IMG/VR virus record: IMGVR_UViG_3300028327_000833
Coordinates: 34,516-98,515 of that record
DNA length: 64,000 nucleotides
Direction: 5' to 3' (one strand)
Source of the DNA: a virus
Taxonomy: Duplodnaviria; Heunggongvirae; Uroviricota; Caudoviricetes
The notes under the pieces are model-generated. The model saw only the letters and a program-made list of their open reading frames with translations. It was not told where the DNA came from and made no database searches. The translations under genes and the position numbers were made by a program. Of this stretch, positions 1-47,250 are shown piece by piece (the stretch's first letter is position 1; each line of letters starts with the position of its first letter).

Positions 1-103
1 CCTCCTCTACTGCGGTACGCGCCTGAAGTCGGGGTTTTGTCTCACAGTATCTAAAGATACTGAAGATCCGCGCGGTTTCGCAAGGATTAAATAGCGCCTC
101 GAT

Positions 104-136
104 AAATTTCGGTTGCGAATGGCGTACTGTAGTAGA
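104..136 (+). promoter_or_regulatory. conserved intergenic motif copy 1 (AAATTTCGG-N-GAA-N-GCGTACTGTAGTAG), putative phage promoter
   Basis: core GCGTACTGTAGTAG at 122-135; same 14-mer recurs 8x, always intergenic, always + strand. Confidence 0.55.
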
Positions 137-265
137 TGGCCGTACCGATAGCGCGGTTGATTCCGAAGAAGATTCTGTATCGTCGATAGGCATGGAAGAA
201 GTCGCGCCCTTTTTGAGCGGCATTGCAATTAAACTAATCAACAAATATAATAAGGAGGCTGTAAA

Positions 266-2557: not shown

Positions 2558-3869
2558 TTGAATGTCATGGACGTTTTCAAAAGCGCTGATGGAGAGCTAC
2601 GTGAACTCGCGCTGTTCGCGGGCGGAGGCGGCGGCATCCTCGGAGGAATCCTCTGCGGTTTCCGCACAGTATGCGCGGTTGAGGTCGATGCTTACTGCCG
2701 CGCTGTACTGTGCGCCCGACAAAATCAAGGAATACTCCCGCCTTTCCCGCTATGGGACGACATCCGCACCTTTGACGGACGCCCGTGGCGAGACGGTGTT
2801 GACGTGGTTTCTGCAGGATTCCCGTGCGTTGACATCAGTACAGCGAATCCGAAAGGCCGCGGACTCGCTGGAGAGAAGAGCGGATTATGGTTCGAGGCTC
2901 GGAGAGTTATCGGCGAAGTACGACCGCGATTCGTCGTCATTGAAAACAGCCCCAACATCGTTAATAAAGGCGGCGTCCGGGTTATTGCAGACCTTGCCGA
3001 AATGGGGTATGACGCGCAATGGGGAATTGTTTCGGCTGCCGACGCCGGAGCGCCTCACATCAGGAAGCGGTGGTGGTGCTTGGCCTACCCCCGACGCGAA
3101 GGGGTTTGTCGGGACGGGGGCGCTGAAAATGCTTGCGGAGAAAGCCTGCGACCGCGAGGAGTGGCTGGGGATGGCGACGCGGTCGGCGGTGTCGCGGAGG
3201 GAAGCCGTGTGGCCGACGCCTACGGTCAGAGAGTCGGAACCCCATGACGCTAAACTGACGCCGAACGGTCGGCGCATATCGAAAGACGGTAAGAGCGGCC
3301 ACAGTCTTAACCTTGCCGACACGGTAAGAATCGCCGAATCGCAAAATACGCTGTGGCCGACGCCTAACGTGCACGGGTTTACGAACGAAGGCTCCTTGAA
3401 AAAGCTAGCAAATGCGGTTGCTGACAAAGCGGAATACTCCGCGATGGCGTACCGCGCTGGTGCGAACATGAAAGACCGCCTCTGGCCGACACCGATGGCC
3501 AACGACGCGAAGAACCGCGCTAACGAAGGGCAGTTTAACCGCGTAACGGTGCCGCTGAATTGCGTAGTTGCTGAAAAACGCGGCGACGCGCTGAATCCTG
3601 ATTGGACAGAGTGGCTGATGGGATGGCCGTTGCATTGGACGCATTTATCGTCCGCAGACGCGCCGCGATACTTCGAGTGCTGGGAACAGCAGATGAAACG
3701 CGGCGAATGGTGGGACGCAGACCCGTCCGAGTCCGCTTTATGCGGAAGCATAATCCCGCGCGTTACGAACGATTCCACGAACCGTTGCAACAGGATCAGG
3801 CTTCTAGGCAACGGGCAGGTTCCGAAAGCCTTAGAGTTGTTCTGGAGATTGATGACTGACCATACCTAA
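2558..3869 (+). CDS. DNA (cytosine-5)-methyltransferase, split over two frames (frame A 2558-3247 carries motifs I/IV/VI/VIII; frame B continues from about 3088 to 3869 with motif X)
   Basis: LFAGGGG (motif I), GFPCVDIS (motif IV PC), VVIENSPN (ENV), APHIRKRWWCLAY (QxRxR) in frame A; RLLGNGQVPKALELFW (motif X) in frame B; frames join at the run of five C's, ~3090-3094. Confidence 0.65.
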
Positions 3870-3870
3870 T

Positions 3871-3903
3871 ATTTTTTCGTTGCAAAATGCGTACTGTAGT
3901 AGA
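3871..3903 (+). promoter_or_regulatory. conserved intergenic motif copy 2
   Basis: core GCGTACTGTAGTAG at 3889-3902 preceded by TTTTCGTTGCAAAAT. Confidence 0.55.
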
Positions 3904-3940
3904 TAGGGCAGGAAAAACGCATAATTTACGGAGATACCGA

Positions 3941-4541: not shown

Positions 4542-5826
4542 GTATTTAATACATTTATAGGTTTTATTATCAAATATTGTTTTTTGTTATCAAATGTGTT
4601 ATCTTTGAGTTATGAAACTATCTAATTATGCTAAAAATCTCGGAATCTCTTAAAGGAACTTGAAAAATGAAGTTCAACAGAAGCGTCAAATGCCATTTCT
4701 CGAAGTGGATAACCGGAAGCAAGTCTGACCGTATAAAAGACTTGCTTTCTGAATATGACGCCGTAGCGACTTCGGCTATCGACGCTGTAAAAAGCCGTAT
4801 AGAAGACGGCGACTCTAAGTTCGACGTCTTTAAAAATTATAAAGTATCTGAAACGTGGCTGACAGCTAGAGCGAAACAAGTCGTTTTAGCTGAAACCTAC
4901 GGTATGGTAGACGGCCAGATTAAAAGTTGCAAAGAGTTAAAACAGCCGTATACGAAACCTAAACACTGCAAAACAAAAGCCGTTTTGTCGAGTCAGCTGG
5001 TATCTGTAAACCTTAACCCTGATTTAGAAGACTTTGATCTTCTAGTAGAGTTAAAATGTTTCGATAGCAGAAGGAAAGCGGTTAAAATAGCGATACCCTT
5101 GAAAAAGAACCGTTGTTTTGAAAAATGGAACTCTAAAGGCAAACTTTCAAGTTCCGTTATTTTAACGGATAAATATATCCAGTTTTCTTTTGAGGCTGAC
5201 GTCCCTAAGAAAACGGAAGGCGGCATTATAGGCTTAGACCCCGGAGCCACGAATCTTTTAACCTCTGACGAGGGCGTTGTTTACGGCGACCGGATAAAGC
5301 CGCTTTTACAGAAACTGAGACGTAAAAAACGCAATTCCAGATCTTGGAAGAAATGCAAAAAAGAAATTAAATACTATATCTCTAAAACATGTAAAGAGTT
5401 GCCTTTTAAGGAGACTAAATTAATTTGTATTGAAAATAACAGGGGTATTAAAAGGAACAGCAAAGTTAAAGGACGCTTAACTAAAAGTATGCGTTCAGTT
5501 CTCGACGGCTGGACAAGCGGGTTGCTGGACAGCAGGGTAGAAATGCTCTCGGAGGAAAACGGTGTTTCCCTCAGACGGGTGCCTGCTTTCCACAACTCCA
5601 CTACTTGTCCGGTCTGTGGTCACGTCGAGAAGGGGAACCGGTTAAGTCAAGAGGCGTTCAGGTGTCTGTCTTGTGACTATGCAGACAAAGCCGATACGGT
5701 CGGCGCCTTGAACACCCTTGGCCGCTTCTCCCTCGGAAAATATGGTTCCGGGTTCAAAACCGATTTTGTTAAAAAACATGGAGGCTACTATGCCTGCAAG
5801 ATTTGATAATAAAAGAGGTAACTATG
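4542..5826 (+). mobile_element. IS607-family derivative, copy 1 (tnpA deleted, tnpB intact)
   Basis: conserved left end GTATTTAATACATTTATAGGTTTTATTATC... and right end ...GCCTGCAAGATTTGATAATAAAAGAGGTAACTATG shared with copies at 7900 and 29279; 13-aa TnpA remnant MKLSNYAKNLGIS* at 4612-4653. Confidence 0.7.
4667..5806 (+). CDS. tnpB: TnpB (IS605 OrfB-family RuvC-like RNA-guided nuclease), 379 aa
   Basis: RuvC-I GLDPGATN, RuvC-II LICIENN, Zn finger CPVCGH...CLSC, RuvC-III YADKADTVGALN. Confidence 0.85.
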   Translation: MKFNRSVKCHFSKWITGSKSDRIKDLLSEYDAVATSAIDAVKSRIEDGDSKFDVFKNYKVSETWLTARAKQVVLAETYGMVDGQIKSCKELKQPYTKPKHCKTKAVLSSQLVSVNLNPDLEDFDLLVELKCFDSRRKAVKIAIPLKKNRCFEKWNSKGKLSSSVILTDKYIQFSFEADVPKKTEGGIIGLDPGATNLLTSDEGVVYGDRIKPLLQKLRRKKRNSRSWKKCKKEIKYYISKTCKELPFKETKLICIENNRGIKRNSKVKGRLTKSMRSVLDGWTSGLLDSRVEMLSEENGVSLRRVPAFHNSTTCPVCGHVEKGNRLSQEAFRCLSCDYADKADTVGALNTLGRFSLGKYGSGFKTDFVKKHGGYYACKI

Positions 5827-6855: not shown

Positions 6856-7134
6856 GGAGGTTATATGTCTCACGAAAAAGCAACTAAAATCGCTGAGATT
6901 GCAAGGTCGCAGATTCAAGAAAAGTTCGACGCACTGTGCAAGACTACTGAAGGCGTCACAAAAGAAAACTTTGACTATTTCGCGTTTCAGGCGCTACTCC
7001 AAGCTGATCCAAAGGCCTTTAAAGATTTTTGGGAAGCGGTTGAAGAAGACGGGCGCAGCAGGAGTCTGTTTGAAATTAATTGTTTATGGGCTGAAGCATT
7101 ACAAATTAAAAAACCTGAATGGGCGACAATATGA
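6856..7134 (+). CDS. hypothetical protein (92 aa)
   Basis: AAAAGGAGG RBS then ATG at 6856. Confidence 0.4.
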   Translation, partial: GGYMSHEKATKIAEIARSQIQEKFDALCKTTEGVTKENFDYFAFQALLQADPKAFKDFWEAVEEDGRSRSLFEINCLWAEALQIKKPEWATI

Positions 7135-7784
7135 CACTTTCTAAGGATTGGTCAGGCAACAAGACGACTGTATTTTCGACAATAGGGTCTAGTAGCCATT
7201 CGGATCGGGAGAGGGCTGAGCGCGACCTATATACGACAAATCAGGTAGATTTCGTCAGATTTATCAAAGCGTTACGGAGGGACGGCATCCAAATTCAAGG
7301 GCCTGTGTGGGAGTGCGCTTCTGGGTGCCACCATCTTGTAGAGGTCTTAGAACGGCTCGGCTATGAGGTGGTGTCCACGGATATAGAAGATCGTTCAGAA
7401 TGGCCTGAGTTTAGAAAAACTAAAGCGAAGTTGCAGAAGATCGATGTGCTGGAGACTACAGGCGTTGATTTGATTAAGTGGGATGTGCGAAGCGTTATCA
7501 CGAATCCGCCCTACAGCATCGCCGACCAATTCGTATCTCACATTATGCCGATGTTGCAGGATAAGCAATATTTAATGCTTTTGCTTAGGATTCAATGGCT
7601 TGAGAGTAAGAAGCGGTACGCGCTCTTTAAGAAGCATAATTATAAGTATGTATATGTATACGTTAGTAGGGCAAATTGTTATAGGAATGCGCAAACTAAA
7701 GACGACGGTGGGGCGATCTGCTTTGCTTGGTTTATTTATGAAAAGGGATACACCGGGGACACAGTCGTGAGATTCATAGAATAG
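7131..7784 (+). CDS. putative DNA N6-adenine methyltransferase (NPPY motif)
   Basis: VITNPPYSIADQF motif IV; candidate SAM site VWECASGCHHL upstream. Confidence 0.5.
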   Translation: MTLSKDWSGNKTTVFSTIGSSSHSDRERAERDLYTTNQVDFVRFIKALRRDGIQIQGPVWECASGCHHLVEVLERLGYEVVSTDIEDRSEWPEFRKTKAKLQKIDVLETTGVDLIKWDVRSVITNPPYSIADQFVSHIMPMLQDKQYLMLLLRIQWLESKKRYALFKKHNYKYVYVYVSRANCYRNAQTKDDGGAICFAWFIYEKGYTGDTVVRFIE

Positions 7785-7899
7785 GAGGCGATATGCGGAA
7801 GAACTTATGCAATTACACCGCAGTCGATTATGACGGCGTCACGTTCAAGGACTACGCATTCTGCGAGGGCAAGACTGCGGAGGCTAGGATTCTGTGCAA

Positions 7900-9184
7900 G
7901 TATTTAATGCATTTATAGGTTTTATTATCAAATATTGTTTTTTGTTATCGAATGTGTTAGCTTTGAGTTATGAAACTATACAGTCGGGCTAAAATTTTTA
8001 GACTCTCTTAAAGGAACTTGAAAAATGAAGTTCAACAGAAGCGTCAAATGTCATTTCTCGAAGTGGATAACCGGAAGCAAGTCTGACCGTATAAAAGACT
8101 TGCTTTCTGAGTATGACGCCGTAGCGACTTCGGCTATCGACGCTGTAAAAAACCGTATAGAAGACGGCGACACGAAGTTCGACGTCTTTAAAAATTACAA
8201 AGTACCGGAAACGTGGCTGACAGCTAGAGCGAAACAAGTCGTTTTAGCTGAAACCTACGGTATGGTAGACGGCCAGATTAAAAGTTGCAAAGAGTTAAAA
8301 CAGCCGTATACGAAACCTAAACACTGCAAAACAAAAGCCGTTTTGTCGAGTCAGCTGTTGTCTGTAAATCTTAACCCTCAATTAGAAGCGTTCGATCTTC
8401 TAGTGGAGTTAAAATGTTTCGATAGCAGACAGCGGGCGGTTAAAATAGCGGTACCTTTGAAAAAGAACCGCTGTTTTGAAAAATGGAACACTAAAGGCAA
8501 ACTCTCAAGTTCCGTTATTTTAACAGACAAATACATCCAGTTTTCTTTTGAGGCTGACGTCCCTAAGAAAACGGAAGGTGATATTATAGGTTTAGACCCC
8601 GGAGCCACGAACCTTTTAACCTCTGACGAGGGCGTTGTTTACGGCGACCTGATAAAGCCGCTTTTACAGAAACTGAAACGGAAAAAACGCAACTCAAGGT
8701 CGTGGAAAAAGTGTAAAAAAGAAATTAAATATTACGTCTCTAAAACATGTAAAGAATTGCCTTTTAAGGAGACTAAATTAATCTGTATTGAAAATAACAA
8801 GGGTATTAAACGGAACAGCAAAGTTAAAGGGCGCTTAACTAAAAATATGCGTTCAGTTCTCGACGGCTGGACAAGCGGGTTGCTGGACAGCAGGGTAGAA
8901 ATGCTTGCTGAAGAAAACGGTGTTTCCTTACGGCGGGTACCTGCTTTCCACAACTCTACTACTTGTCCGGTCTGCGGTCACGTTGAGAAGGGGAACCGGT
9001 TAAGTCAAGAGGCGTTCAGGTGTCTGTCTTGTGGCTATGCAGACAAAGCCGATATGGTCGGCGCCTTGAACACCCTTGGCCGCTTCTCCCTCGGAAAATA
9101 TGGTTCCGGGTTCAAAACCGATTTTGTTAAAAAACATGGAGGCTACTATGCCTGCAAGATTTGATAATAAAAGAGGTAACTATG
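7900..9184 (+). mobile_element. IS607-family derivative, copy 2 (tnpA deleted, tnpB intact)
   Basis: same ends and same tnpA deletion junction (..CTCTTAAAGGAACTTGAAAAATG) as copy 1. Confidence 0.7.
8025..9164 (+). CDS. tnpB: TnpB, 379 aa
   Basis: about 95% aa identity to 4667-5806; all RuvC and Zn-finger motifs intact. Confidence 0.85.
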   Translation: MKFNRSVKCHFSKWITGSKSDRIKDLLSEYDAVATSAIDAVKNRIEDGDTKFDVFKNYKVPETWLTARAKQVVLAETYGMVDGQIKSCKELKQPYTKPKHCKTKAVLSSQLLSVNLNPQLEAFDLLVELKCFDSRQRAVKIAVPLKKNRCFEKWNTKGKLSSSVILTDKYIQFSFEADVPKKTEGDIIGLDPGATNLLTSDEGVVYGDLIKPLLQKLKRKKRNSRSWKKCKKEIKYYVSKTCKELPFKETKLICIENNKGIKRNSKVKGRLTKNMRSVLDGWTSGLLDSRVEMLAEENGVSLRRVPAFHNSTTCPVCGHVEKGNRLSQEAFRCLSCGYADKADMVGALNTLGRFSLGKYGSGFKTDFVKKHGGYYACKI

Positions 9185-9188
9185 GCGA

Positions 9189-9238
9189 GGAGTTTATATG
9201 AAAACCACTGAAGACGCAAGTTTAGAGCTAGAATTCGC
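9189..9238 (+). repeat. 50-bp near-identical (48/50) duplicate of the 5' end of gene 10329-10646, immediately after the IS copy-2 right end
   Basis: GGAGTTTATATGAAAACCACTGAAGACGCAAGTTTAGAGCTAGAATTCGC vs 10320-10369. Confidence 0.8.
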
Positions 9239-9282
9239 AGGGTAAGTTCGGCAACCGTTTCTCTTAACATAGGATACCGCAA

Positions 9283-9567
9283 ATGCGCATATACCAGTCG
9301 CATGACATCGGGTGCATAACCCGCGAACCGTATTTCAAAATCGAACTCAGCGACCTTGAGTTCGCGCACCTTGTGTGGCGGTATCAAAATTGCACGGATC
9401 CTGGCGACTACTACGCAACTGCAGACGGCAGTGGCGTTGATCAAACTATGCAAGCAGAAATAAATAAGTTTTGCAAGGAAAATAACCTCGACGTAGATAC
9501 AATATGCCGTCCGTGGAACACTGATGATTACTGGGAGGAGCCTGAAGATGAAATATATGGGCAGTAA
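9283..9567 (+). CDS. hypothetical protein (94 aa)
   Basis: ORF. Confidence 0.35.
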   Translation: MRIYQSHDIGCITREPYFKIELSDLEFAHLVWRYQNCTDPGDYYATADGSGVDQTMQAEINKFCKENNLDVDTICRPWNTDDYWEEPEDEIYGQ

Positions 9568-10315
9568 GTCGCGCATTGCCAAACATATCGTCCCAATAAT
9601 TCAAGGCATCCTTGATCGTCATAACGTAACCTGCTACGTCGAACCGTTTGTCGGCGGCGCGAATGTTATAGACAAGATCAAGTGCGAGCGACGTATCGGC
9701 ACCGACAGCAACAACTATCTCATCGCGCTCCTCAAGCAGGTTACGGAGTCTGATCCAGGTCTGCCGGACGAAGTCAGCCGTCCGATGTACAACGAAATCC
9801 GCAGCAATTATAAAACAGGGCTTTATCAAGATTGGGTCGTAGGATGCGTCGGCTTCCTCGCCTCCTACAACGGACGCTTTTTCGACGGCGGCTACGCACA
9901 GCCCGGATACGAGACCTTGAAAGACGGCAAAAAGCGCTACCGTGACTACTATCGCGAAGCCAAAGACAACCTTCTCGCGCAGATTCCGCTGCTGAAGGGC
10001 GTCCGTTTTGAATGCCGAGATTATAAGGACGCGATTAAAACATTCAGCGGAGGTCTTCGCGAGCATCCGACGCTATTCTATTGCGATCCGCCGTACCAGA
10101 ATAAAAAGCAATATGGCGAAATTAAACCTAAAGAGTGGTATGACGAATTTTGGCAGACGATAGAAAAGTTATCGTCCGAAGCCATTGTAATAGTAAGCGA
10201 AGAAAACGCCCCTGGAAATTGGACATGCATTTGGGGGCAAGAGGTCTCACGAAGCATAAAAGCATCGGACAAATCCAGAAGCGTCGAAAAACTGTTTATG
10301 TTGAATCCTAAGTAA
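9548..10315 (+). CDS. dam: DNA adenine methyltransferase, Dam-like (D12 class)
   Basis: N-terminal MKYMGSKSRIAKHIVPII and catalytic FYCDPPYQ. Confidence 0.8.
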   Translation: MKYMGSKSRIAKHIVPIIQGILDRHNVTCYVEPFVGGANVIDKIKCERRIGTDSNNYLIALLKQVTESDPGLPDEVSRPMYNEIRSNYKTGLYQDWVVGCVGFLASYNGRFFDGGYAQPGYETLKDGKKRYRDYYREAKDNLLAQIPLLKGVRFECRDYKDAIKTFSGGLREHPTLFYCDPPYQNKKQYGEIKPKEWYDEFWQTIEKLSSEAIVIVSEENAPGNWTCIWGQEVSRSIKASDKSRSVEKLFMLNPK

Positions 10316-10328
10316 AGGGGGAGTTTAT

Positions 10329-10646
10329 ATGAAAACCGCTGAAGACGCAAGTTTAGAGCTGGAATTCGCGCGGAGTGTTGTTCACGGACTCCGCAAAATG
10401 CTCGAAATCCAGACGATACAGGAGTCCCTGCTGAAAGACTTCTGCATCCGCCGTCTGAAACAAGACGGAGTCAAACTGCCTGAGAAGTACAGTTGCGGCA
10501 TAGTCCATTATACGCAGAACCATTTCATACTAGCAATTTGCGAATCGCCTATGTGGGAGTACGCACGTACCTTGGACATTAAATTTAACAGTATAGATTT
10601 CAGTTACACAATTATTAAGCGCGGACACGCAGAGGAGGAAGAATGA
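10329..10646 (+). CDS. hypothetical protein (105 aa)
   Basis: ORF; its first 40 nt are duplicated at 9200-9238. Confidence 0.45.
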   Translation: MKTAEDASLELEFARSVVHGLRKMLEIQTIQESLLKDFCIRRLKQDGVKLPEKYSCGIVHYTQNHFILAICESPMWEYARTLDIKFNSIDFSYTIIKRGHAEEEE

Positions 10647-11353
10647 AGATCGTCGAACCGTCTTATGAATTCATTACGCCCCTGAACCGCGACGCTATCT
10701 TGAAACGGATAGAGGAGTGCGGCAGAACCTGTTACCGTTCGGAAGGCAAGATCGGGGAAGGCACCGCCGAGAAGTTCGCGGCAATGATCGTGAACCGCCA
10801 TCACGAAAGCGTGTTGGAGCACATCTCGCTGTCAGTACGGTTCGTGACCGATAACGGCATTTTGCGCGAGTTGACCCGTCATAGGATTGCATCTTTCAGC
10901 GTAGAGAGCACCCGCTATTGTAATTATAGCGGCGACAAGTTCAGCAACGAGATTTCAGTCGTCCGACCGAGCAGTCTGACACCGCCTGATCCCGCGAGTC
11001 TGTTTTGGTACGATGCCTGCGGGTTGGCCGAAAAACATTACTTCAAGTTGCTCGAAAATGGGTGCAAACCTGAAATTGCGCGGAGTGTCCTGCCTTTATG
11101 CACCGCTACCACGATTGTGATGACCGCCAACCTGCGCGAGTGGCGGCACGTGCTGCGGCTCAGATGCGCTCCTGCCGCGCACCCCGATATGCGCTTGCTA
11201 ATGCGCCCGCTTCTGCAAGAGTTCAAGAAAGAACTTCCAGAAATATTCAGCGACGTCGGCGAACAAGAAATCACCCTAGAACAGTGCGCGGAATTCTTAG
11301 AGCAGAGCCGAAAGGAACAGGACGGTGTCGATTCCCGGTTCGAGCCGAAATAG
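10643..11353 (+). CDS. thyX: flavin-dependent thymidylate synthase ThyX
   Basis: ThyX signature LTRHRIASFSVESTRY (RHRx7S..RY). Confidence 0.8.
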   Translation: MKIVEPSYEFITPLNRDAILKRIEECGRTCYRSEGKIGEGTAEKFAAMIVNRHHESVLEHISLSVRFVTDNGILRELTRHRIASFSVESTRYCNYSGDKFSNEISVVRPSSLTPPDPASLFWYDACGLAEKHYFKLLENGCKPEIARSVLPLCTATTIVMTANLREWRHVLRLRCAPAAHPDMRLLMRPLLQEFKKELPEIFSDVGEQEITLEQCAEFLEQSRKEQDGVDSRFEPK

Positions 11354-11390
11354 TGTTTTGACTAAGAATAATAAATTTTATAAAAAAAAA

Positions 11391-11418
11391 GTCAAAACGA
11401 GAAGCGTACTGTAGTAGA
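11391..11418 (+). promoter_or_regulatory. conserved intergenic motif copy 3
   Basis: core at 11404-11417; preceded by inverted repeat GTTTTGAC(11356-11363)/GTCAAAAC(11390-11397). Confidence 0.5.
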
Positions 11419-11465
11419 GGGCAGTATGCTTTTTTTTACAACTAATTTTGTCAGGAGGTTAAAAA

Positions 11466-16189: not shown

Positions 16190-16257
16190 CGCCGATCGGA
16201 ATGGCCGCGCCCTTCGCGGACGCGCGAGCCGAACAATTTATAGCAAACCGCCGATAA

Positions 16258-16288
16258 ATTTTGATTGCGGGAGGCGTACTGTAGTAGA
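16258..16288 (+). promoter_or_regulatory. conserved intergenic motif copy 4, followed by hairpin AGAGGG-N8-CCCTCT (16284-16303)
   Basis: core at 16274-16287. Confidence 0.55.
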
Positions 16289-16390
16289 GGGGGTGACTGC
16301 CCTCTAACTTGTTTTCATCCAGCGCGCGGCGGACGGCCTCTCGCCTGCCGTCTTTCGCCGCGCGTCTTTTAATCCACTAAATTAGGAGGG

Positions 16391-28093: not shown

Positions 28094-28102
28094 CCGAAAG
28101 AA

Positions 28103-28135
28103 AAATTTCGGCACCGAATAGCGTACTGTAGTAGA
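28103..28135 (+). promoter_or_regulatory. conserved intergenic motif copy 5, followed by perfect 10-bp hairpin GAGACTCCGT-GCAGAT-ACGGAGTCTC (28146-28171)
   Basis: core at 28121-28134. Confidence 0.55.
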
Positions 28136-28221
28136 AGCGTTTCGCGAGACTCCGTGCAGATACGGAGTCTCCTGATCTAACGCAATAACGAACCACAATC
28201 TATCCCTATGAGGCAACCGTT

Positions 28222-29295
28222 ATGTCACAAGTACAAGTAGATACGACGCCGCTGACCGAAGCCCAGCAAAAACGCTTAAAAAAACTTCTGAAAAAAGAGG
28301 CGCAGATAGAAGCGGAGCATAAGGAGTTGATCGAGTTGAAGTACGCCGACCCTGAGTTTTGGCGGCGGTCGCACGACCCCAAGCGATGGACGGTAACGGC
28401 TAAAGAGCGCTGGAAAAGCCGCGCCGAAAGGTGGCTGGAGGCTCCGGCGGACTATCGCCGTCAGGTGACCCGCAACGTTTCTTTGGGGGAGGTAGGAAAG
28501 AAGGCGCGAGTCAGTTGCGAAATTGTCGTGCCGTCGGTTAAAATCTACGAATACTTAAAAAGCAAAGCAAATTTACCCGAAACCGCCAGCGCGTCGAGTA
28601 AAGCCTACGAATACCCAAAAAGCGGAGCAGATTTACCTGAAATCGCCATCGCGCAGACGGTGCTGTCTATAGAGGCCGCCATAGAACGCAATTTTTTAGA
28701 TTGTAATTATACGGCGGTCTTTGCAATTCCAGAAGACCACATCAAATTCTGCATAACGCACGGATTTCTGTGGAGAGCCCCGTTTGCGAATCTCGAAGCG
28801 GCGGATTATATCTGCGGTCTCATACGCGAAGCCAACGTAGGTCATACTTTGCAAGTTGAGGAGTATATCGACGAAGCCGAGATCAAGAGCGCACGGTTGG
28901 CGGAGGCGGCAGCCGACCCTTCCCGCGCGATTAAATTCGTTAATGTGACTGTGACCGAAGAGCGCGAGTTCGTCATACCGACAGCTAAGATAAACCAATA
29001 CCTGAAAAAAATGCTGAAGTTTCCTGACGACGAAATCTCTGCGACGGTGACGGCGATCAGCAAGATAATAAAACAGGCGAACAAGAACGACGCTTCCGAC
29101 ATTCTTGTCATACCTTGGGTGTTGATTAAGGGTTGCTTAATGGGGAAAACTGGGCGCACGGATTACCAGTCGCAGCTGCTTATAGACGCCCTCTATTCTT
29201 TCTTCAAAGACGCCAACTACGGCAAGGTGTCTGCGAATGAAGGCGAAATCGTAGACGATTACGAGTTGCCGAGGCCGGTATTTAATACTTTATAG
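28222..29295 (+). CDS. hypothetical protein (357 aa) with internal 60-bp imperfect tandem repeat (28537-28656)
   Basis: KIYEYLKSKANLPETASAS / KAYEYPKSGADLPEIAIAQ; C-terminal codons and stop supplied by IS left end. Confidence 0.45.
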   Translation: MSQVQVDTTPLTEAQQKRLKKLLKKEAQIEAEHKELIELKYADPEFWRRSHDPKRWTVTAKERWKSRAERWLEAPADYRRQVTRNVSLGEVGKKARVSCEIVVPSVKIYEYLKSKANLPETASASSKAYEYPKSGADLPEIAIAQTVLSIEAAIERNFLDCNYTAVFAIPEDHIKFCITHGFLWRAPFANLEAADYICGLIREANVGHTLQVEEYIDEAEIKSARLAEAAADPSRAIKFVNVTVTEEREFVIPTAKINQYLKKMLKFPDDEISATVTAISKIIKQANKNDASDILVIPWVLIKGCLMGKTGRTDYQSQLLIDALYSFFKDANYGKVSANEGEIVDDYELPRPVFNTL

Positions 29296-29346
29296 GTTTT
29301 ATTATCAAATATTGTTTTTTGTTATCAAATGTGTTATCTTTGAGTT

Positions 29347-29904
29347 ATGAAACTATCTAATTATGCTAAAAATCTCGGAATCTCTTATTTGACCGCGTAC
29401 AGGCACTACAAAGCAAATAAGATTAAAGGCGCTTATCAGCTAGAGTCTGGGACAGTAATTGTTCCAGACTTAAATTCCGTAAGTAAACCTGACTATACTG
29501 TTATTTACAGCAGAGTCAGTTCGTCTGAAAATAAAAGCAACCTGGAGAGCCAGGCAGAGAGGCTTATGCAATTCTGTAATGCAAAAGGGTGGGTTGTTAA
29601 AGAAGTTATAAAAGAATGCGCATCAAGGTTAAACGATAACCGCCCTAAATTATTGAAGTTATTTAAGGAGAGGCGGGCAACTAGACTCGTGGTGGAGCAT
29701 AAAGACCGCCTAACCAGGTTTGGATTTAATTACATAAAAGAACTTTATAACGAGTGTGAAATTGTAATTTTAAATGAAGCTGAAAATCGAAATGATTTAA
29801 TGCAAGACTTTGTTTCGTTAGTAACCTCTTTTTGCGCTATGTTATATGGACAACGAAGGACAAAACGACAGACAGAAAAGTTAATCAAGGAACTTGAAAA
29901 ATGA
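29347..29904 (+). CDS. tnpA: IS607-family TnpA, serine recombinase with N-terminal MerR-like HTH
   Basis: catalytic serine motif VIYSRVSSSENKSNLESQ; 185 aa. Confidence 0.8.
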   Translation: MKLSNYAKNLGISYLTAYRHYKANKIKGAYQLESGTVIVPDLNSVSKPDYTVIYSRVSSSENKSNLESQAERLMQFCNAKGWVVKEVIKECASRLNDNRPKLLKLFKERRATRLVVEHKDRLTRFGFNYIKELYNECEIVILNEAENRNDLMQDFVSLVTSFCAMLYGQRRTKRQTEKLIKELEK

Positions 29905-31040
29905 AGTTCAACAGAAGCGTCAAATGCCACTTCTCGAAGTGGATAACCGGAAGCAAGTCCGGCCGTATAAAAGACTTGCTTTCTGAGTATGACGCCGTAG
30001 CGACTTCGGCTATAGACGGTATAAAAAACCGCATAGAAGACGGCGACTCTAAGTTCGACGTCTTTAAAAATTACAAAGTACCGGAAACGTGGCTGACGGC
30101 CAGAGCGAAACAAGTCGTTTTAGCCGAAACCTACGGCGTGGTAGACGGCCAGATTAAAAGTTGCAAAGAGTTAAAACAGCCGTATACGAAACCTAAACAC
30201 TGCAAAACAAAAGCCGTTTTGTCGAGTCAGCTGGTATCTGTAAACCTTAACCCTGATTTAGAAGACTTTGATCTTCTAGTAGAGTTAAAATGTTTCGACA
30301 GCAGAAGGAAAGCGGTTAAAATAGCGATACCCTTGAAAAAGAACCGTTGTTTTGAAAAATGGAACACTAAAGGCAAACTTTCAAGTTCCGTTATTTTAAC
30401 GGATAAATATATCCAGTTTTCGTTTGAGGCTGATGTCCCTAAGAAAACGGAAGGTGGCATTCTAGGCTTAGACCCCGGAGCCACGAATCTTTTAACATCA
30501 GACGAGGGCGTTGTTTACGGCGACCGTATAAAGCCGCTTTTACAGAAACTTAAACGTAAAAAACGCAACTCAAGGTCGTGGAAAAAATGTAAAAAAGAGA
30601 TTAAATATTACATTTCTAAAACATGTAAAGAGTTGCCTTTTAAAGAAACTAAATTAATCTGTATTGAAAATAACAAGGATATTAAAAGAAACAGCAAAGT
30701 TAAAGGACGCTTAACTAAAAATATGCGTTCAGTTCTCGACGGCTGGACAAGCGGGTTGCTGGACAGCAGGGTAGAAATGCTCTCAGAGGAAAACGGTGTT
30801 TCCCTCAGACGAGTGCCTGCTTTCCACAACTCCACTACTTGTCCGGTCTGCGGTCACGTCGAGAAGGGGAACCGGTTAAGTCAAGAGGCGTTCAGGTGTC
30901 TGTCTTGTGGCTATGCAGACAAAGCCGATATGGTCGGCGCTTTAAACGTCCTTGGCCGCTTCTCCCTCGGAAAATATGGTTCCGGGTTCAAAACCGAGTT
31001 TGTTAAAAAACATGCAGGTTATTACGCCTGCAAGATTTGA
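29901..31040 (+). CDS. tnpB: TnpB, 379 aa
   Basis: GLDPGATN, LICIENN, CPVCGH..CLSCGY, ADKADMVGALN. Confidence 0.85.
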   Translation: MKFNRSVKCHFSKWITGSKSGRIKDLLSEYDAVATSAIDGIKNRIEDGDSKFDVFKNYKVPETWLTARAKQVVLAETYGVVDGQIKSCKELKQPYTKPKHCKTKAVLSSQLVSVNLNPDLEDFDLLVELKCFDSRRKAVKIAIPLKKNRCFEKWNTKGKLSSSVILTDKYIQFSFEADVPKKTEGGILGLDPGATNLLTSDEGVVYGDRIKPLLQKLKRKKRNSRSWKKCKKEIKYYISKTCKELPFKETKLICIENNKDIKRNSKVKGRLTKNMRSVLDGWTSGLLDSRVEMLSEENGVSLRRVPAFHNSTTCPVCGHVEKGNRLSQEAFRCLSCGYADKADMVGALNVLGRFSLGKYGSGFKTEFVKKHAGYYACKI

Positions 31041-31057
31041 TAATAAAAGAGGTAACT

Positions 31058-31498
31058 ATGTACATAATGCTGTCGATTCATCCGCAGTACGCCGAAAAAA
31101 TTCTCGACGGGACGAAGCTGTGGGAATACCGCAAAACCTTGCCGACAACGCATCTCCTCGACGTAACGGGAGTTGTGGTGTACGCCACAGCGCCCGTGTC
31201 GAGAATTGTCGGCGAGTTCGAAACGGATTTGACGAAGACGCGTACGGCGTCCCCGTGCAAGCTGTGGCATGAAACGGACGGCGAACGAGACGGAGGCATC
31301 ACCAAAGAAGCCTTCGACAAATATTTCGAGGGGCACGACTACGGGTACGCGATCCCGGTCTTGCTGTATTCGGGCGGAAGTTCCGCCGTAAGATACGACG
31401 TCCCTCGGAGGCTCGCGGATTTCGGATTGAAAAAGCCGCCGCAAGGGTTCGCATATTTGAAGAAATATAACGGCTTAAAAACAATAGGCGCGGAATAA
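31058..31498 (+). CDS. ASCH/PUA-like domain protein; start ATG and RBS supplied by IS right end
   Basis: MLSIHPQYAEKILDGTKLWEYRKT resembles the ASCH N-terminus. Confidence 0.45.
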   Translation: MYIMLSIHPQYAEKILDGTKLWEYRKTLPTTHLLDVTGVVVYATAPVSRIVGEFETDLTKTRTASPCKLWHETDGERDGGITKEAFDKYFEGHDYGYAIPVLLYSGGSSAVRYDVPRRLADFGLKKPPQGFAYLKKYNGLKTIGAE

Positions 31499-32475: not shown

Positions 32476-32640
32476 GTGATTGAAGAGCTGAGCAAAAGTT
32501 GTCCGAATCACGTGAAGAACGAAATTAACGCGACGTTTGCCAAGAACGTAGTGAATCCTGACTTTACGGATAACTGCAACAAGCTGGCGAAACAAGCGGC
32601 AGGCAGAGTCAAACAACCTAAAGGCGAAGGACGGCTATGA
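32476..32640 (+). CDS. small hypothetical protein (GTG start)
   Basis: GGGGGA RBS; overlaps pncB start by ATGA. Confidence 0.3.
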   Translation: MIEELSKSCPNHVKNEINATFAKNVVNPDFTDNCNKLAKQAAGRVKQPKGEGRL

Positions 32641-33845
32641 TTATCACATCGCTGTTAGACTGCGATCTGTACAAATTTAGCATGGGAGCCGCGTATTTTG
32701 ACGGGTTTGCCAATACTACTGCGCGGTTTGTGTTCAAAGACCGTACTAATAAAATCCCAGTTACCGAGTTATTTATCGAAAGGCTCGGGCGCGAGGTCGA
32801 TTCGTTATGCAAGTTGAAATTCAGTACCGAAGAGTTAGATTATCTTTTCGGACTTAGATTTATGAAAGATAAGGTCGGGTATAGGGAATATTTGCGGAAC
32901 TTCCGACTCAATCCCGATTGGATTCATATTTACGGAGTAAATGACGGCGGCAAACTTGCGGCGGTAGAGATTCATACAGCAGAAGCCCCGCTGATAGCCG
33001 TCAGTATGTTTGAAATTTATATCCTTGCAATCGTGAACGAGTTGTATTGCCAGGATAACAACGTGTACCCTCCTCGGTATGAGCGCCAACTTGCGGAGGA
33101 CACTGCGAAGCGGTTTGATGCGCTCGAATGCCCTTTCATCGAAATGGGTACGCGAAGGCGAATATCGGGAAGTTTTCAAGATAAACTAATTGGCGAGTTA
33201 AAAAAGAATTCTAAATTTCTGGGGACAAGCAATGTTTATCTTGCGATGAAGCACGGCGTAACCCCAAGCGGGACGCAAGCTCACGAGTATTTGTGTACCG
33301 GGCAAGGACTTCCTCATGTGCCCGTAGCCGACAGTCAGCGGTATATGTTCGATTTCTGGGCGCGACACTTCAACGGGGACTTGGGCATAGCCTTGTCGGA
33401 TAATCTAGGCACGGACAAGTTTTTGGAAGACTTCACTTGCTACTATGCCAAACTGTTCGACGGTGTCAGACATGACTCAGGTGACCCGTTCGTATGGGGC
33501 GAGCAGATGATTAAAATGTACGAGGGTTACGGGATCGACCCGAAATCCAAAAAATTGGTATTCAGCGACAGTCTATCTCTGGAAAAGGCCAACGCTATCT
33601 ACCGCAAATTTAAGGATAGAGTCAAAGTTGTAGCTGGAATCGGGACGGCGTTGACGAATCCGATCAAGGATAAGGCGACCAATATCGTGATGAAGATGGT
33701 CAGTTGCAACGGGCGGCCTGTGGCTAAGTTATCAAACAACCCAGGCAAACAAATGTGCGAGAATGCCGATTATGTGCGTTATTTGAAACAGGTGGTTAAG
33801 TTCAATGACAGCTACGAACTGTCCGAAGAGGATGGCTGGGAATAA
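32637..33845 (+). CDS. pncB: nicotinate phosphoribosyltransferase (PncB)
   Basis: blocks GTRRRISGSF, GTSNVYLAMKHGVTPSGTQAHE, LGIALSD, GVRHDSGDPFVWGE, LVFSDSL, GIGTALTN, NIVMKMVSCNGRPVAKLSNNPGK align to E. coli PncB. Confidence 0.85.
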   Translation: MIITSLLDCDLYKFSMGAAYFDGFANTTARFVFKDRTNKIPVTELFIERLGREVDSLCKLKFSTEELDYLFGLRFMKDKVGYREYLRNFRLNPDWIHIYGVNDGGKLAAVEIHTAEAPLIAVSMFEIYILAIVNELYCQDNNVYPPRYERQLAEDTAKRFDALECPFIEMGTRRRISGSFQDKLIGELKKNSKFLGTSNVYLAMKHGVTPSGTQAHEYLCTGQGLPHVPVADSQRYMFDFWARHFNGDLGIALSDNLGTDKFLEDFTCYYAKLFDGVRHDSGDPFVWGEQMIKMYEGYGIDPKSKKLVFSDSLSLEKANAIYRKFKDRVKVVAGIGTALTNPIKDKATNIVMKMVSCNGRPVAKLSNNPGKQMCENADYVRYLKQVVKFNDSYELSEEDGWE

Positions 33846-33947
33846 ACTTTTAACCTTCTAAGGAGGGCGTTATGAGTGAACATAAGAAGCCTGGCGAGGT
33901 TCTTACTGAAGCCGAGGCGGGTTTTATCAGCGCAACGGAGGGAAAAA

Positions 33948-34835
33948 ATGTATACTTACAAGTTTGATGTAGAGAAAGTGACGAAAGATTGCGTCGCGTG
34001 GATAAAAAGATGGTTTGCCGAGAATGGCGGCGAGAGACCTGCCGCGATTGTCGGCGTCAGTGGAGGCAAGGACAGCGCGGTCGTCGCGGCATTGTGCGCC
34101 GAAGCTCTCGGCAAGGACAACGTTATAGCGGTGCTGATGCCGAACGGCGAGCAAAAGGACATTGCGGATTCCTGGAAAATTATATATCACATAGGTTTGA
34201 AGAGAATTATCCTCTCTAACATCAGCGACACTGTCAATGGGCTATTCGCTAATTGCGGTGTTGTTGAAGATTGTGTTAAGTACAACCTAAACCAACGGTT
34301 TTGGTATCCAGAAACAGCAAGCATTGCTTGGAACAATCAAGCCGCGGTAAACGCACCTGCGCGGATTCGGATGGCTACGCTGTACGCGATGGCGGCTCAA
34401 TACGGCGGTCGGGTGGCGAACACCTGCAACCGCAGCGAGGATGTGTGCGGGTACGCGACCCTCTACGGCGATTCGGCTGGCGACTTCAGTCCGCTGTCCA
34501 AGCTAACTGTGACGGAAGTCATCGCAATCGGCGAATACTTGGGTTTGCCACAAGAGATTACTCGTAAGACTCCGAGCGACGGCCTGTGCGGGAAGTCGGA
34601 TGAGGAATCTTTGGGCATGAAGTACGCCGAACTCGATGAGTGGCTCCGCGAAAGTAAGCGCGAGAGTACTATCGGCATCAAAGTCTGGGATATGTGGATG
34701 AGCCGCGGAAGGTTCAAACTATCTCTGATAAATCTACCGTCTTTCGACCCCGACCTTTATGACAGGATAGAAGATGTGGATTATGAGCGCAATCAACCAA
34801 GAGGCGAAGTAAGACTCATAAAGAGTATGCCTTGA
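33948..34835 (+). CDS. nadE: NH3-dependent NAD+ synthetase (NadE)
   Basis: PP-loop VGVSGGKDSAV; RBS ACGGAGGG before ATG 33948. Confidence 0.85.
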   Translation: MYTYKFDVEKVTKDCVAWIKRWFAENGGERPAAIVGVSGGKDSAVVAALCAEALGKDNVIAVLMPNGEQKDIADSWKIIYHIGLKRIILSNISDTVNGLFANCGVVEDCVKYNLNQRFWYPETASIAWNNQAAVNAPARIRMATLYAMAAQYGGRVANTCNRSEDVCGYATLYGDSAGDFSPLSKLTVTEVIAIGEYLGLPQEITRKTPSDGLCGKSDEESLGMKYAELDEWLRESKRESTIGIKVWDMWMSRGRFKLSLINLPSFDPDLYDRIEDVDYERNQPRGEVRLIKSMP

Positions 34836-35388
34836 TATGCCTGAATACTATTGCAATAAGCTGGCGGAGCAGGCGGCGAGCAGGATTAAGCCGGAAAAGT
34901 CGACGGCGAGGAATTACCGTGCTCTTGCGTAGTTAAGGGGTACGATAACGCTATCATAATCAAGTGGTAATACCGGAGGTGTAGAATGGAATGGAACCTT
35001 ACGCTCGACGGCGGTCAGTTGAATTTCCTGCACGATCTTGTAGCGGAGTACATGAAACAAGCGGAAAAACCGTCTTTAGCGAGCGTCTACCCGACAGGCA
35101 TCGCGCTTGAAGTCTATGACGCATTACAGGGAGCGTTGCCTAAAGAAAGGACGGCATAATGTCGGAAGAGCGCACCGTCTATCGCTGTCTGCACGAAACG
35201 GCGGGTCAGAACCAATGCCCTACCCTCGGCATGGCTAAAAACGACATCTATTGCAGATACGCCTGTTACGTCTGCAAAGACGAAGTCGCCGTGGATAAAA
35301 AATTCAAATGTCCGTTGGAAGCTAAATGAGCTATACGCTACGTTGATACTGTTTATAAACGAAGCTTTATGCGACGAGGAGGATATAG

Positions 35389-42435: not shown

Positions 42436-42510
42436 ATCGGCGCGGCTCAATAGGTTTAGAGCGCTACCTTGCCGAGGTAGATGTTGCGGGTTCGAGACCC
42501 GCTATCGGTT
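42436..42510 (+). tRNA. tRNA-Gly(GCC)-like with weak acceptor stem (3 G-U pairs, 1 mismatch)
   Basis: D arm GCTC-AATAGGTTTA-GAGC, anticodon arm CTACC-TTGCCGA-GGTAG, T arm GCGGG-TTCGAGA-CCCGC. Confidence 0.4.
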
Positions 42511-43220: not shown

Positions 43221-43302
43221 GGCGGGGTAGACTAACGGCAAGTCAGCGGCCTCGAATGCCGCCGGCCTCACGGCCTTCTGGGTTCAAATCCTAGTCCCGC
43301 CG
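43221..43302 (+). tRNA. tRNA-Ser (anticodon CGA), long variable arm
   Basis: acceptor GGCGGGG/TCCCGCC, anticodon arm GCGGC-CTCGAAT-GCCGC, variable hairpin GGCC-TCAC-GGCC, T arm CTGGG-TTCAAAT-CCTAG. Confidence 0.6.
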
Positions 43303-43395: not shown

Positions 43396-43405
43396 ATCAG
43401 GCATA

Positions 43406-43441
43406 AATATTTTTCGGTGTCGAAAGGCGTACTGTAGTAGG
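43406..43441 (+). promoter_or_regulatory. conserved intergenic motif copy 7, followed by nested hairpins 43441-43495
   Basis: core at 43427-43440. Confidence 0.55.
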
Positions 43442-43511
43442 ACACGCGCCCGTAACTCAGTCGGGAGACTTCCGCCCTTTCGGAGCGCGTCTAACCATCT
43501 GGGAGGCTGTC

Positions 43512-46217: not shown

Positions 46218-46294
46218 AGGGCGGCCGCCTAACGGCTGTGGCGTCGGTCTCCAAAACCACTTTTCGCGGGTTCGACTCCTGCCCGCCCTGTTAA
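46218..46294 (+). ncRNA. tRNA-like RNA: acceptor AGGGCGG/CCGCCCT, D arm, T arm GCGGG-TTCGACT-CCTGC, but no foldable canonical anticodon arm
   Basis: all 5+7+5 anticodon-arm registers in the 46239-46265 segment fail. Confidence 0.35.
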
Positions 46295-47219: not shown

Positions 47220-47250
47220 ATTTTGACGGCGAAAGGCGTACTGTAGTAGG
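47214..47250 (+). promoter_or_regulatory. conserved intergenic motif copy 8
   Basis: core at 47236-47249. Confidence 0.55.

What the first reader, a model, noticed from the sequence alone, without database searches (positions are those of the whole stretch)
9185..9245. IS copy 2 is followed by a 50-bp duplicate of the start of a gene 1.1 kb downstream, which is also its predicted TnpB guide region
Bases 9189-9238, immediately after the IS right end, match 10320-10369 at 48/50. The second site is the RBS and first 40 nt of gene 10329-10646. The upstream copy encodes only MKTTEDASLELEFAG*. Between the two copies lie a small ORF and the Dam methyltransferase. Two explanations seem possible. The element may have carried flank DNA, and hence its omega-RNA guide, from an earlier insertion next to a homologue of this gene. 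Alternatively the Dam module was inserted between duplicated sequence. Either way, the copy-2 guide is predicted to match a second site in the same genome.
Basis: partly seen in the sequence, partly recalled or inferred. Interest (0 to 1): 0.55.

Follow-up and report, generated by a model that had tools for sequence, protein, structure and literature searches.

The report
Fossil flank beside a phage IS607
A jumping gene in a large termite-gut phage is followed by a 54-base leftover of the gene junction it once sat in; this rearrangement scar now forms its guide-RNA template and probably cannot direct cutting of the intact copy 1.1 kb away.

Summary
Bases 9189-9238 match 10320-10369 at 48/50, with no such match in 100 shuffles. 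Five independent metagenome assemblies show both copies. The element is IS607-family: copy 3 carries a serine-recombinase tnpA, and copies 1 and 2 share a 499-bp tnpA deletion. Its conserved right end stops at 9184, so the predicted guide starts at 9185.

The only available relative (L007, 69% identical gene product) has Dam, then the 105-aa gene, then ThyX. Copy B is therefore the native junction. L007 reads GCGAGGAG before the start codon, exactly like 9185-9192, whereas copy B reads AGGGGGAG. L007 also sides with copy A at both internal mismatches. Copy A is thus 54 nt, abuts the IS end exactly, and descends from a different allele of the Dam-tail/gene-start junction.

My best reading is that copy A is a fossil of an earlier insertion site of the IS. 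How it was separated from a full gene is unresolved.

The guide matches site B at 17/20, with mismatches at positions 1, 2 and 4. Site B also lacks the G found before all six left ends. Self-cleavage is therefore not expected.

Interest is modest: this is a known kind of element with an informative rearrangement scar.

The parts
7793..7918 (+). Small ORF (41 aa as it stands) that reads into the IS left end and stops at a TAG inside it. This is the left flank of IS copy 2.
   Evidence: Its first 35 aa have no homologues in 1.84 billion representative proteins.
7901..9184 (+). IS copy 2, an IS607-family element lacking tnpA. It shares the same 499-bp deletion as copy 1.
   Evidence: Alignment of the copies. 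The left end starts TATTTAAT after a G in all six left flanks seen. The right end stops at ...AACTATG in all three copies.
7920..7937 (+). Left arm of the subterminal 18-nt inverted repeat (TTTTATTATCAAATATTG). It is probably a TnpA binding site.
   Evidence: It is 94% complementary to 9155-9172, and the same pair occurs in copy 3.
8025..9164 (+). tnpB-2, 379 aa. The Zn-ribbon and the RuvC-III Asp are present.
   Evidence: Pfam PF07282. Alignment to solved Cas12f/TnpB chains.
8965..9184 (+). Predicted omega-RNA scaffold region, covering the 3' end of tnpB and the right end.
   Evidence: The RNA fold has z = -2.9 against shuffles. There are 14 variable columns in the last 236 alignment columns, against 155 in all 1286. 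This is an inference by analogy with IS607 omega-RNAs. No Rfam family matched.
9155..9172 (+). Right arm of the subterminal inverted repeat.
9185..9238 (+). Copy A, a 54-nt fossil of a Dam-tail/gene105-start junction. Bases 9185-9204 are the predicted 20-nt guide template, GCGAGGAGTTTATATGAAAA.
9198..9245 (+). Truncated ORF MKTTEDASLELEFAG*, a remnant of a gene105 homologue.
   Evidence: read directly from the sequence.
9239..9282 (+). Spacer after the novel joint at 9238/9239. It has no similarity to gene105. If 7901-9240 is removed, ORF 7793 would continue ...ILCKGKFGNRFS* and stop at 9264-9266.
   Evidence: The ORF continuation is an inference and is not statistically significant.
9283..9567 (+). 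94-aa ORF of unknown function.
   Evidence: It shows no similarity to the 109-aa ORF that occupies this place in L007.
9548..10315 (+). Dam (D12-class N6-adenine DNA methyltransferase), 255 aa. It lacks the KYSEELI tail present in L007.
10316..10369 (+). Copy B, the native Dam/gene105 junction. Bases 10320-10369 match copy A at 48/50. Bases 10316-10319 (AGGG) differ from GCGA.
10329..10646 (+). gene105, a 105-aa protein of unknown function. Only two sequence clusters of it are known.
10643..11353 (+). ThyX, the downstream member of the block conserved with L007.
4543..5826 (+). IS copy 1, lacking tnpA. It was used to define the IS ends.
29279..31060 (+). IS copy 3, the full-length element. It carries tnpA (29347-29904, Pfam Resolvase) and tnpB (29901-31040).

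Best explanation
Copy A (9185-9238) is a molecular fossil. It is the right-hand target flank of an earlier insertion of this IS607-family element into the last codons of a Dam gene, just upstream of the ribosome-binding site of a gene105 homologue. That insertion happened in a related phage or in an earlier state of this genome.

The IS/A junction at 9184/9185 is a genuine right-end/target junction. The only non-IS joint is at 9238/9239, where the gene105 fragment breaks off. The IS and 54 nt of its old flank now sit 98 nt upstream of orf94, the gene preceding Dam-gene105-ThyX. They arrived either as a unit or through recombination between IS copies followed by an illegitimate joint.

IS607 TnpB takes its guide from the DNA just beyond the right end. 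Copy 2's omega-RNA is therefore predicted to carry the guide GCGAGGAGTTTATATGAAAA. This would still serve normal homing, that is, cutting the donor joint if copy 2 excises.

The intact native junction (copy B) differs from the guide at positions 1, 2 and 4. It also lacks the conserved G at TAM position -1. The phage is therefore not expected to cut itself.

What is shown: the repeat, the IS family and its ends, the conserved synteny, and the allelic character of copy A. What is inferred: the existence and the 3' end of the omega-RNA, the TAM, the non-cleavage of B, and the route by which A was displaced.
For: 1. The repeat is real and reproducible.
2. The IS is IS607-family with defined ends. 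Copy 3 has a Resolvase-domain TnpA, and all copies have a TnpB. All three right ends stop at AACTATG and then diverge. A 63%-identical relative IS ends ...GTAACTATA.
3. L007 shows Dam-gene105-ThyX in the same order, with DNA homology starting at the Dam start. Copy B is therefore the native site.
4. The L007 junction TATAGCGAGGAGCTTATATGAAACGCACTGAAG matches copy A through GCGA, right up to the IS end. It keeps the same reading frame for a Dam tail (YSEELI* in L007, YGEEFI* in copy A). It also agrees with A, not B, at both internal A/B differences. All five informative sites favour A = L007.
5. The IS copies are mosaics of one another, so recombination among them is frequent. Copies 1 and 2 differ at 12 of 100 positions in one stretch and at 2 of 186 in the next.
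6. Contigs from other samples share the right flank of an IS copy but carry different left flanks.
7. In IS607 elements the guide is the flank next to the right end, and the TAM lies next to the left end.
Against: - There is only one outgroup, L007, and it is distant (75% DNA identity). The argument that A is allelic rests on 5 informative positions, 3 of them within 4 adjacent bases.
- No IS-free allele of either site was found, and no genome with the IS at a Dam/gene105 junction was found.
- Moving the IS plus 54 nt as a unit would need TnpA to cross over outside its normal right end, which has not been described.
- The alternative routes need two or more events.
- The omega-RNA and the TAM are not demonstrated. 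The six left flanks share only G at -1, and A at -3 in five of six.
- The linkage of the two flanks of copy 2 depends on a single assembly.
Confidence: 0.55

Rival explanations
1. Loss and regain of Dam, a modified form of the reader's second explanation. The IS still sits at its original insertion site, so copy A is native. The Dam gene that lay to its left was deleted by recombination between two IS copies, which gave copy 2 a foreign left flank. Segment 9239-10319 (orf94 plus Dam), with a second copy of the junction, was then brought in from a related genome. One crossover was homologous, within or beyond gene105. The other was illegitimate, at 9238/9239.
For: Direct repeats flanking a 1.08-kb segment are what one homologous plus one illegitimate crossover produces. 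Upstream of Dam the window and L007 are unrelated: orf94 and the 109-aa ORF show no similarity, and homology starts at the Dam start. That border is therefore a recombination boundary. The IS copies are mosaic, and their left flanks differ between assemblies. Hybrid-flank IS copies are therefore plausible.
Against: This route needs three events: insertion, deletion and re-acquisition. It must recreate exactly the ancestral Dam-gene105 adjacency seen in L007. No variant lacking orf94-Dam is seen among 9 contigs that carry gene105.
Confidence: 0.25
2. Coincidental adjacency. The 50-bp duplication arose by replication slippage or unequal crossover unrelated to the IS, and the IS later happened to insert at its left edge.
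For: Short partial duplications of gene starts occur at module boundaries in phage genomes (general knowledge). All three IS copies in the window sit 6-17 nt upstream of a start codon. An insertion close to an RBS is therefore not surprising in itself.
Against: Homology to the L007 junction runs up to the last base before the IS end. The DNA left of the IS is unrelated to a Dam tail. A later insertion into a longer duplicate would have left the rest of the Dam tail on the left side. Copy A also carries the outgroup state at all five informative sites. That is unexpected for a recent, unconstrained copy of B.
Confidence: 0.1
3. Retained weapon or homing guide. The old flank is kept because TnpB-2 with this guide cuts the Dam/gene105 junction of co-infecting related phages that carry the (TATG)GCGAGGAG allele. 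The resident junction B is immune through its TAM and seed changes.
For: The guide matches the L007 junction at 18/20, with mismatches at positions 9 and 20. Its differences from B are concentrated in the TAM and the first four guide positions. TnpB-2 is an intact ORF with a Zn-ribbon and the RuvC-III Asp. IS607 TnpB drives homing by cutting guide-matching sites.
Against: L007 has A, not G, at -1, and a mismatch at position 9 inside the mismatch-sensitive region. Any rearrangement joint would also make the homology end somewhere. There is no evidence of selection on copy A. No target-bearing relative has been sampled.
Confidence: 0.08
4. Assembly artefact. The duplicate was created by a mis-join at the repeated IS.
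For: The IS is present in at least 7 copies, and contigs break or differ at IS copies.
Against: Five contigs from different samples and assemblers contain right end + A + orf94 + Dam + B on one molecule. They are identical to the window.
Confidence: 0.02

Closest known systems
IS607-family insertion sequences with TnpB and a flank-derived omega-RNA guide (for example CboIStron, ISXfa1, ISFba1)
   Same: A serine-recombinase TnpA lies upstream of TnpB, overlapping it by 4 nt (copy 3). The TnpB is about 380 aa with a Zn-ribbon and RuvC. No target duplication is seen. Subterminal inverted repeats are present. A G lies next to the left end, as in the G-ending TAMs TGGG, AGGAG and GAGGG. The guide template is the DNA immediately beyond the right end.
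   Different: Only 20 nt separate the tnpB stop from the right end. Any omega-RNA must therefore overlap the ORF, unlike the RAGATH-18 type. No Rfam family and no group I intron is detected. The element lives in a large phage, in at least 7 copies, most without tnpA. The flank of copy 2 is a displaced fragment of another locus rather than contiguous target DNA.
IS copies with hybrid flanks produced by recombination between IS copies (a classic signature of IS-mediated deletion or rearrangement in bacterial genomes)
   Same: The left and right flanks of copy 2 do not belong to the same original locus. The IS copies are mosaics of each other. Left flanks differ between assemblies.
   Different: An additional non-IS joint (9238/9239) truncates the old flank to 54 nt. 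IS607 makes no target duplication, so the usual duplication-mismatch test cannot be applied.
Self-targeting CRISPR spacers with a mutated PAM or protospacer
   Same: A guide template has a near-match elsewhere in the same genome. That near-match is disabled at the adjacent motif and in the seed.
   Different: There is no array and no acquisition machinery. The 'spacer' is simply flank DNA. Whether the changes in B were selected is unknown.
TldR (TnpB-like nuclease-dead repressors with fixed guides against promoters)
   Same: The guide region corresponds to the RBS and start of a specific gene rather than to an empty transposon site.
   Different: TnpB-2 keeps the RuvC-III Asp and still lies inside an IS with both ends. 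The guide does not match the resident gene copy in the seed.

Membership tests
IS607 family | Serine-recombinase (resolvase-type) TnpA | tested here: met
   Copy 3 ORF 29347-29904 matches Pfam PF00239 Resolvase, E = 4e-15. Copies 1 and 2 have lost it through an identical 499-bp deletion.
IS607 family | TnpB (RuvC plus Zn-ribbon, Cas12f-like) downstream of tnpA | tested here: met
   Pfam PF07282, E = 2e-12. The ORF aligns to solved Cas12f/TnpB chains across the Zn-ribbon and the RuvC-III Asp. The RuvC-I and RuvC-II motifs (GLDPG, IEN) were read by eye only.
IS607 family | No target-site duplication, with conserved ends carrying subterminal repeats | tested here: met
   The flanks of copies 1-3 share no duplication. 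An 18-nt subterminal inverted repeat is present in copies 2 and 3.
IS607 family | Matching core dinucleotide at both junctions, with a TAM next to the left end | tested here: inconclusive
   The right end always ends in TG. The left flanks end in AG, AG, GG, TG, TG and GG. G at -1 is found in 6/6 and A at -3 in 5/6. Six junctions are too few for a TAM logo.
IS607 family | Omega-RNA whose scaffold ends at the right end and whose guide is the flank | not testable with these tools
   The evidence is indirect: fold z = -2.9 and analogy with the literature. No Rfam match was found. RNA-seq is needed.
IS200/IS605 family | Y1 (HUH) TnpA and hairpin-forming ends | tested here: not met
   The only transposase is a serine recombinase.
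IStron (IS fused to a group I intron) | Group I intron ribozyme at the 5' end of the element | tested here: not met
   No Intron_gpI hit appeared at the gathering threshold or at E <= 5. The left end is only 124 nt before tnpB.
TldR (nuclease-dead TnpB repressor) | Loss of RuvC catalytic residues, and loss of the transposon context | tested here: not met
   The RuvC-III Asp aligns with that of active relatives. Both IS ends are intact.

The most novel reading that the evidence does not exclude
The displaced 54-nt flank acts as a fixed guide. TnpB-2 uses it to cut the Dam/gene105 junction of co-infecting related phages, giving homing or marker exclusion. The resident junction has escaped through changes confined to the TAM and the first four guide positions. 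That would be a transposon guide frozen away from its own empty site, a small step towards a spacer-like, CRISPR-like use of TnpB in phage-phage conflict.
Probability: 0.08. Interest if true: 0.7.

Novelty: new member of a known kind. Interest (0 to 1): 0.33.

Why it matters
For IS605 and IS607 elements the guide is assumed to be re-specified by each new insertion, because it is simply the adjacent DNA. Here an element appears to have kept a piece of its previous neighbourhood. That fragment records where the element used to be.

It also shows that recombination can uncouple the guide from the current target site. The result is a near self-target, which the genome tolerates because the seed and TAM differ.

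This is a useful natural example for anyone studying how TnpB guides could become fixed, as in TldR or early Cas12 evolution. It also shows how multi-copy IS607 elements restructure large phage genomes. As it stands, it is a rearrangement scar, not a new mechanism.

Tried and rejected
- A megablast of 9165-11400 against 50,697 phage records gave no match.
- A viral-contig scan with the gene105 alignment found no relative. The scan with Dam found only homologues of 60% identity or less, in unrelated contexts.
- Pattern scans for the junction (GGAGNTTATATGAAANNCNCTGAAG) found nothing in the metagenome and viral collections. Scans for the IS right end (25-mer) found nothing in the metagenome, viral or genome collections. 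These collections evidently do not hold this phage.
- Three further tnpB variants of the 205-kb source contig could not be located. A TAM logo from all 7 or more copies was therefore impossible.
- No IS-free allele was found for copy 2 through the neighbouring methyltransferase.
- The N-terminal 35 aa of ORF 7793 have no homologues. I therefore could not test whether that ORF continues at 9239.
- I considered that AGGATACCGCAAATG (9268-9282) is homologous to the Dam upstream region of L007. I dropped this as unsupported, because orf94 and the L007 109-aa ORF are not similar.
- IStron or group I intron: rejected.
- A tandem duplication followed by two deletions and a precise excision: rejected as needing too many steps.
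- Promoter and terminator scans around the repeat gave no more sites than shuffles.

Full report
**Observation**

Bases 9189-9238 and 10320-10369 match at 48 of 50 positions. None of 100 dinucleotide-preserving shuffles of the window gave a second match. The upstream copy, here called A, contains an RBS and an ATG and encodes MKTTEDASLELEFAG*. The downstream copy, B, is the RBS plus the first 41 nt of ORF 10329-10646, here called gene105. Between them lie a 94-aa ORF and a D12-class Dam methyltransferase.

Five contigs come from different samples and assemblers (ENA megahit, JGI, Logan). Each carries the IS right end, copy A, orf94, Dam and copy B on one molecule, identical to the window. The duplication is therefore not an assembly artefact. 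No independent contig spans the whole of IS copy 2. Copies 1 and 2 are identical over about 150 nt in the region where the left-anchored and right-anchored contigs overlap. The linkage of copy 2's two flanks therefore rests on the window contig alone.

**What the IS is**

The window holds three copies.
- Copy 3 (29279-31060) encodes a 185-aa serine recombinase (Pfam Resolvase) that overlaps the start of a 379-aa TnpB (Pfam Cas12f1-like_TNB).
- Copies 1 (4543-5826) and 2 (7901-9184) have the same 499-bp deletion, which removes tnpA.

This is an IS607-family element, not IS200/IS605. Rfam finds no group I intron and no known omega-RNA family.

All three right ends read ...GATAATAAAAGAGGTAACTATG and diverge immediately afterwards. 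A 63%-identical relative IS ends ...GAGTAACTATA. An 18-nt subterminal inverted repeat lies 19 nt inside the left end and 12 nt inside the right end.

Six different left flanks are available: three in the window and three in contigs L008, L094 and L095. All have G immediately before TATTTAAT, and five of six have A at -3.

In characterised IS607 elements the TAM abuts the left end. The omega-RNA scaffold ends at the right end, and the guide is the next 16-20 nt of flank (bioRxiv 10.1101/2023.11.20.567912; PMC11061315). By that rule copy 2's guide template starts at 9185: GCGAGGAGTTTATATGAAAA. The 3' 220 nt of the element fold better than shuffles, with z = -2.9. The omega-RNA itself is inferred, not shown.

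The source contig is 204,996 bp. It carries at least six full-length tnpB variants plus a 105-aa remnant. The window's other genes look like the replication and nucleotide-metabolism region of a large phage: helicase, methyltransferases, NAD-dependent ligase, ThyX and tRNAs.

**Which copy is native**

gene105 has only two sequence clusters among 5.8 billion proteins: the window's own, and a 69%-identical one on a 4.1-kb JGI contig, L007. L007 has Dam, gene105 and ThyX in the same order. DNA homology to the window (75%) starts at the Dam start codon. Upstream of Dam the two genomes are unrelated. L007 has no extra copy of the gene105 start. Copy B is therefore the native junction, and copy A is the displaced one.

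**The key comparison**

In L007, Dam has a seven-residue tail (KYSEELI*) that overlaps the gene105 start codon. The junction reads ...AAAAAGTATAGCGAGGAGCTTATATGAAACGCACTGAAG. The window reads, at copy A, (IS end ...AACTATG)GCGAGGAGTTTATATGAAAACCACTGAAG. At copy B it reads ...CCTAAGTAAAGGGGGAGTTTATATGAAAACCGCTGAAG.

Three things follow.
- The four bases between the IS end and the intragenomic repeat (GCGA, 9185-9188) are part of the same ancestral junction. Copy A is therefore 54 nt long and abuts the IS end exactly.
- Copy A preserves the reading frame of a Dam tail: YGEEFI*, against YSEELI* in L007.
- At both positions where A and B differ inside the repeat, L007 has the A state.

All five informative positions therefore group A with the outgroup. 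Copy A is not a recent decaying copy of B. It derives from another allele of the Dam-tail/gene105 junction. The IS/A boundary looks like a bona fide insertion junction in that allele. The evidence is thin, with one outgroup and five sites, but it is consistent.

**How copy A came to be where it is**

The only joint that is not an IS junction is 9238/9239, where the gene105 fragment stops. I see two routes.

(i) The IS plus 54 nt of its old right flank was inserted as a unit into ORF 7793.
- Removing 7901-9240 restores a 44-aa ORF that ends 16 nt before orf94. This is suggestive but not significant.
- AG occurs at both outer junctions.
- This route needs a crossover outside the normal right end, which has not been described for this family.

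(ii) The IS is still at its original site.
- Recombination between two IS copies deleted the old Dam gene and gave copy 2 a foreign left flank.
- orf94-Dam-junction was then regained from a relative through one homologous and one illegitimate crossover.

The IS copies are clearly mosaic. Copies 1 and 2 differ at 12 of 100 positions in one stretch and at 2 of 186 in the next. Copies 1 and 3 differ at 0 of 100 in one stretch and at 11 of 100 in another. Contigs from other samples share the DNA to the right of an IS left end but have different DNA to its left. These contigs could be real rearrangements or assembly chimeras. Recombination at IS copies is therefore plausible, but the two routes cannot be separated with the data available. 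No IS-free allele and no source allele could be found.

**Does the guide hit the second site?**

The 20-nt guide template matches 10316-10335 at 17 of 20 positions, with mismatches at positions 1, 2 and 4. The base at -1 is A rather than the G seen at all six left ends. For the IS607 TnpB ISFba1, single mismatches at positions 1-13 abolish or strongly impair cleavage. Every single change in its 5-nt TAM abolishes cleavage (PMC11061315).

By inference, TnpB-2 should not cut site B. The guide still matches its own donor joint (GCAAG|GCGAGGAG...) if copy 2 excises, so ordinary homing is unaffected. The guide regions of copies 1 and 3 have no second match in the window.

**Comparison with known systems and novelty**

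This is an IS607-family element working, as far as can be inferred, like the characterised ones. It meets the family's testable features: serine TnpA, TnpB, no target duplication and subterminal repeats. The core-dinucleotide/TAM feature is inconclusive, and the omega-RNA is untested. It is not an IStron and not a TldR.

What is unusual is that one copy's guide template is a displaced fragment of another locus. It records an earlier residence and creates a disabled near self-target.

The most novel reading that the evidence does not exclude is that the frozen guide targets the corresponding junction of competing relatives while the resident allele is immune. I rate that at about 8%.

**Verdict**

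The self-match claim needs to be weakened. I file this as a new member of a known kind, of modest interest.

Noticed in passing
window 4543-5826, 7901-9184, 29279-31060; cluster P0123: The source contig (204,996 bp) carries at least six full-length tnpB variants plus a 105-aa remnant of the same IS607 element. Only copy 3 in the window has tnpA. Copies 1 and 2 share an identical 499-bp tnpA deletion, so tnpA-less derivatives have multiplied.
   Followed up: partly
IS copies 1-3 and the IS copies in L008 (7424-8708) and L094 (4876-6160): The IS copies are mosaics of each other. Stretches of 0-2% divergence alternate with stretches of 10-14% between the same pair. This indicates gene conversion among copies.
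   Followed up: partly
L008 1-7423, L094 1-4875, L095 1-3075: In contigs from other samples, homology to the window begins exactly at an IS left end, and the DNA to the left is different. Either the phage population is rearranged at IS copies or the assemblies are chimeric at the repeat.
   Followed up: partly
L095 3076-3510 (equivalent to the window copy 3 position): A miniature derivative of the IS (about 70 bp of left end joined to 368 bp of right end) sits before the ASCH-domain gene in one assembly. Its truncated TnpB remnant resembles the 105-aa remnant P0211.
   Followed up: no
L008 4162-4288: An isolated 127-bp fragment of the IS right end, in inverted orientation.
   Followed up: no
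window 9170-9184, 5812-5826, 31046-31060: The IS right end finishes with a Shine-Dalgarno-like AAGAGG followed by ATG. At copy 3 this ATG is in frame with the downstream ASCH-domain gene, and gene callers use it as that gene's start. At copy 1 an ATG inside the right end (5790) reads out in frame into the downstream 296-aa gene. The element may supply translation signals to genes it lands in front of. All three copies lie 6-17 nt upstream of a start codon.
   Followed up: partly
window 100-139, 3867-3906, 11379-11421, 16252-16291, 28099-28138, 43405-43444, 47214-47253: A conserved motif, GCGTACTGTAGTAG(A/G), occurs seven times on the + strand, each in an AT-rich stretch just upstream. It is probably a phage-specific promoter or another regulatory signal.
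   Followed up: no
window 42436-42510, 43221-43302, 46218-46290, 47595-47660: Four tRNA genes.
   Followed up: no
window 32637-36504: An NAD salvage and synthesis cluster (NAPRTase, NAD synthase, NMNAT-NUDIX fusion) lies next to a Band_7/SPFH gene. The Pfam labels come from the identical contigs L095 and L096.
   Followed up: no
window 40682-40801 and 41219-41338: A 120-nt direct repeat, 89% identical, with the copies 537 nt apart.
   Followed up: no
window 7119-7784 and 2562-3869: At least two further DNA methyltransferase-like genes lie near Dam. One is a 221-aa NPPY-motif protein with a weak EcoRI_methylase hit. The other is a 435-aa protein matching the PHROG family 'DNA methyltransferase'.
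   Followed up: no
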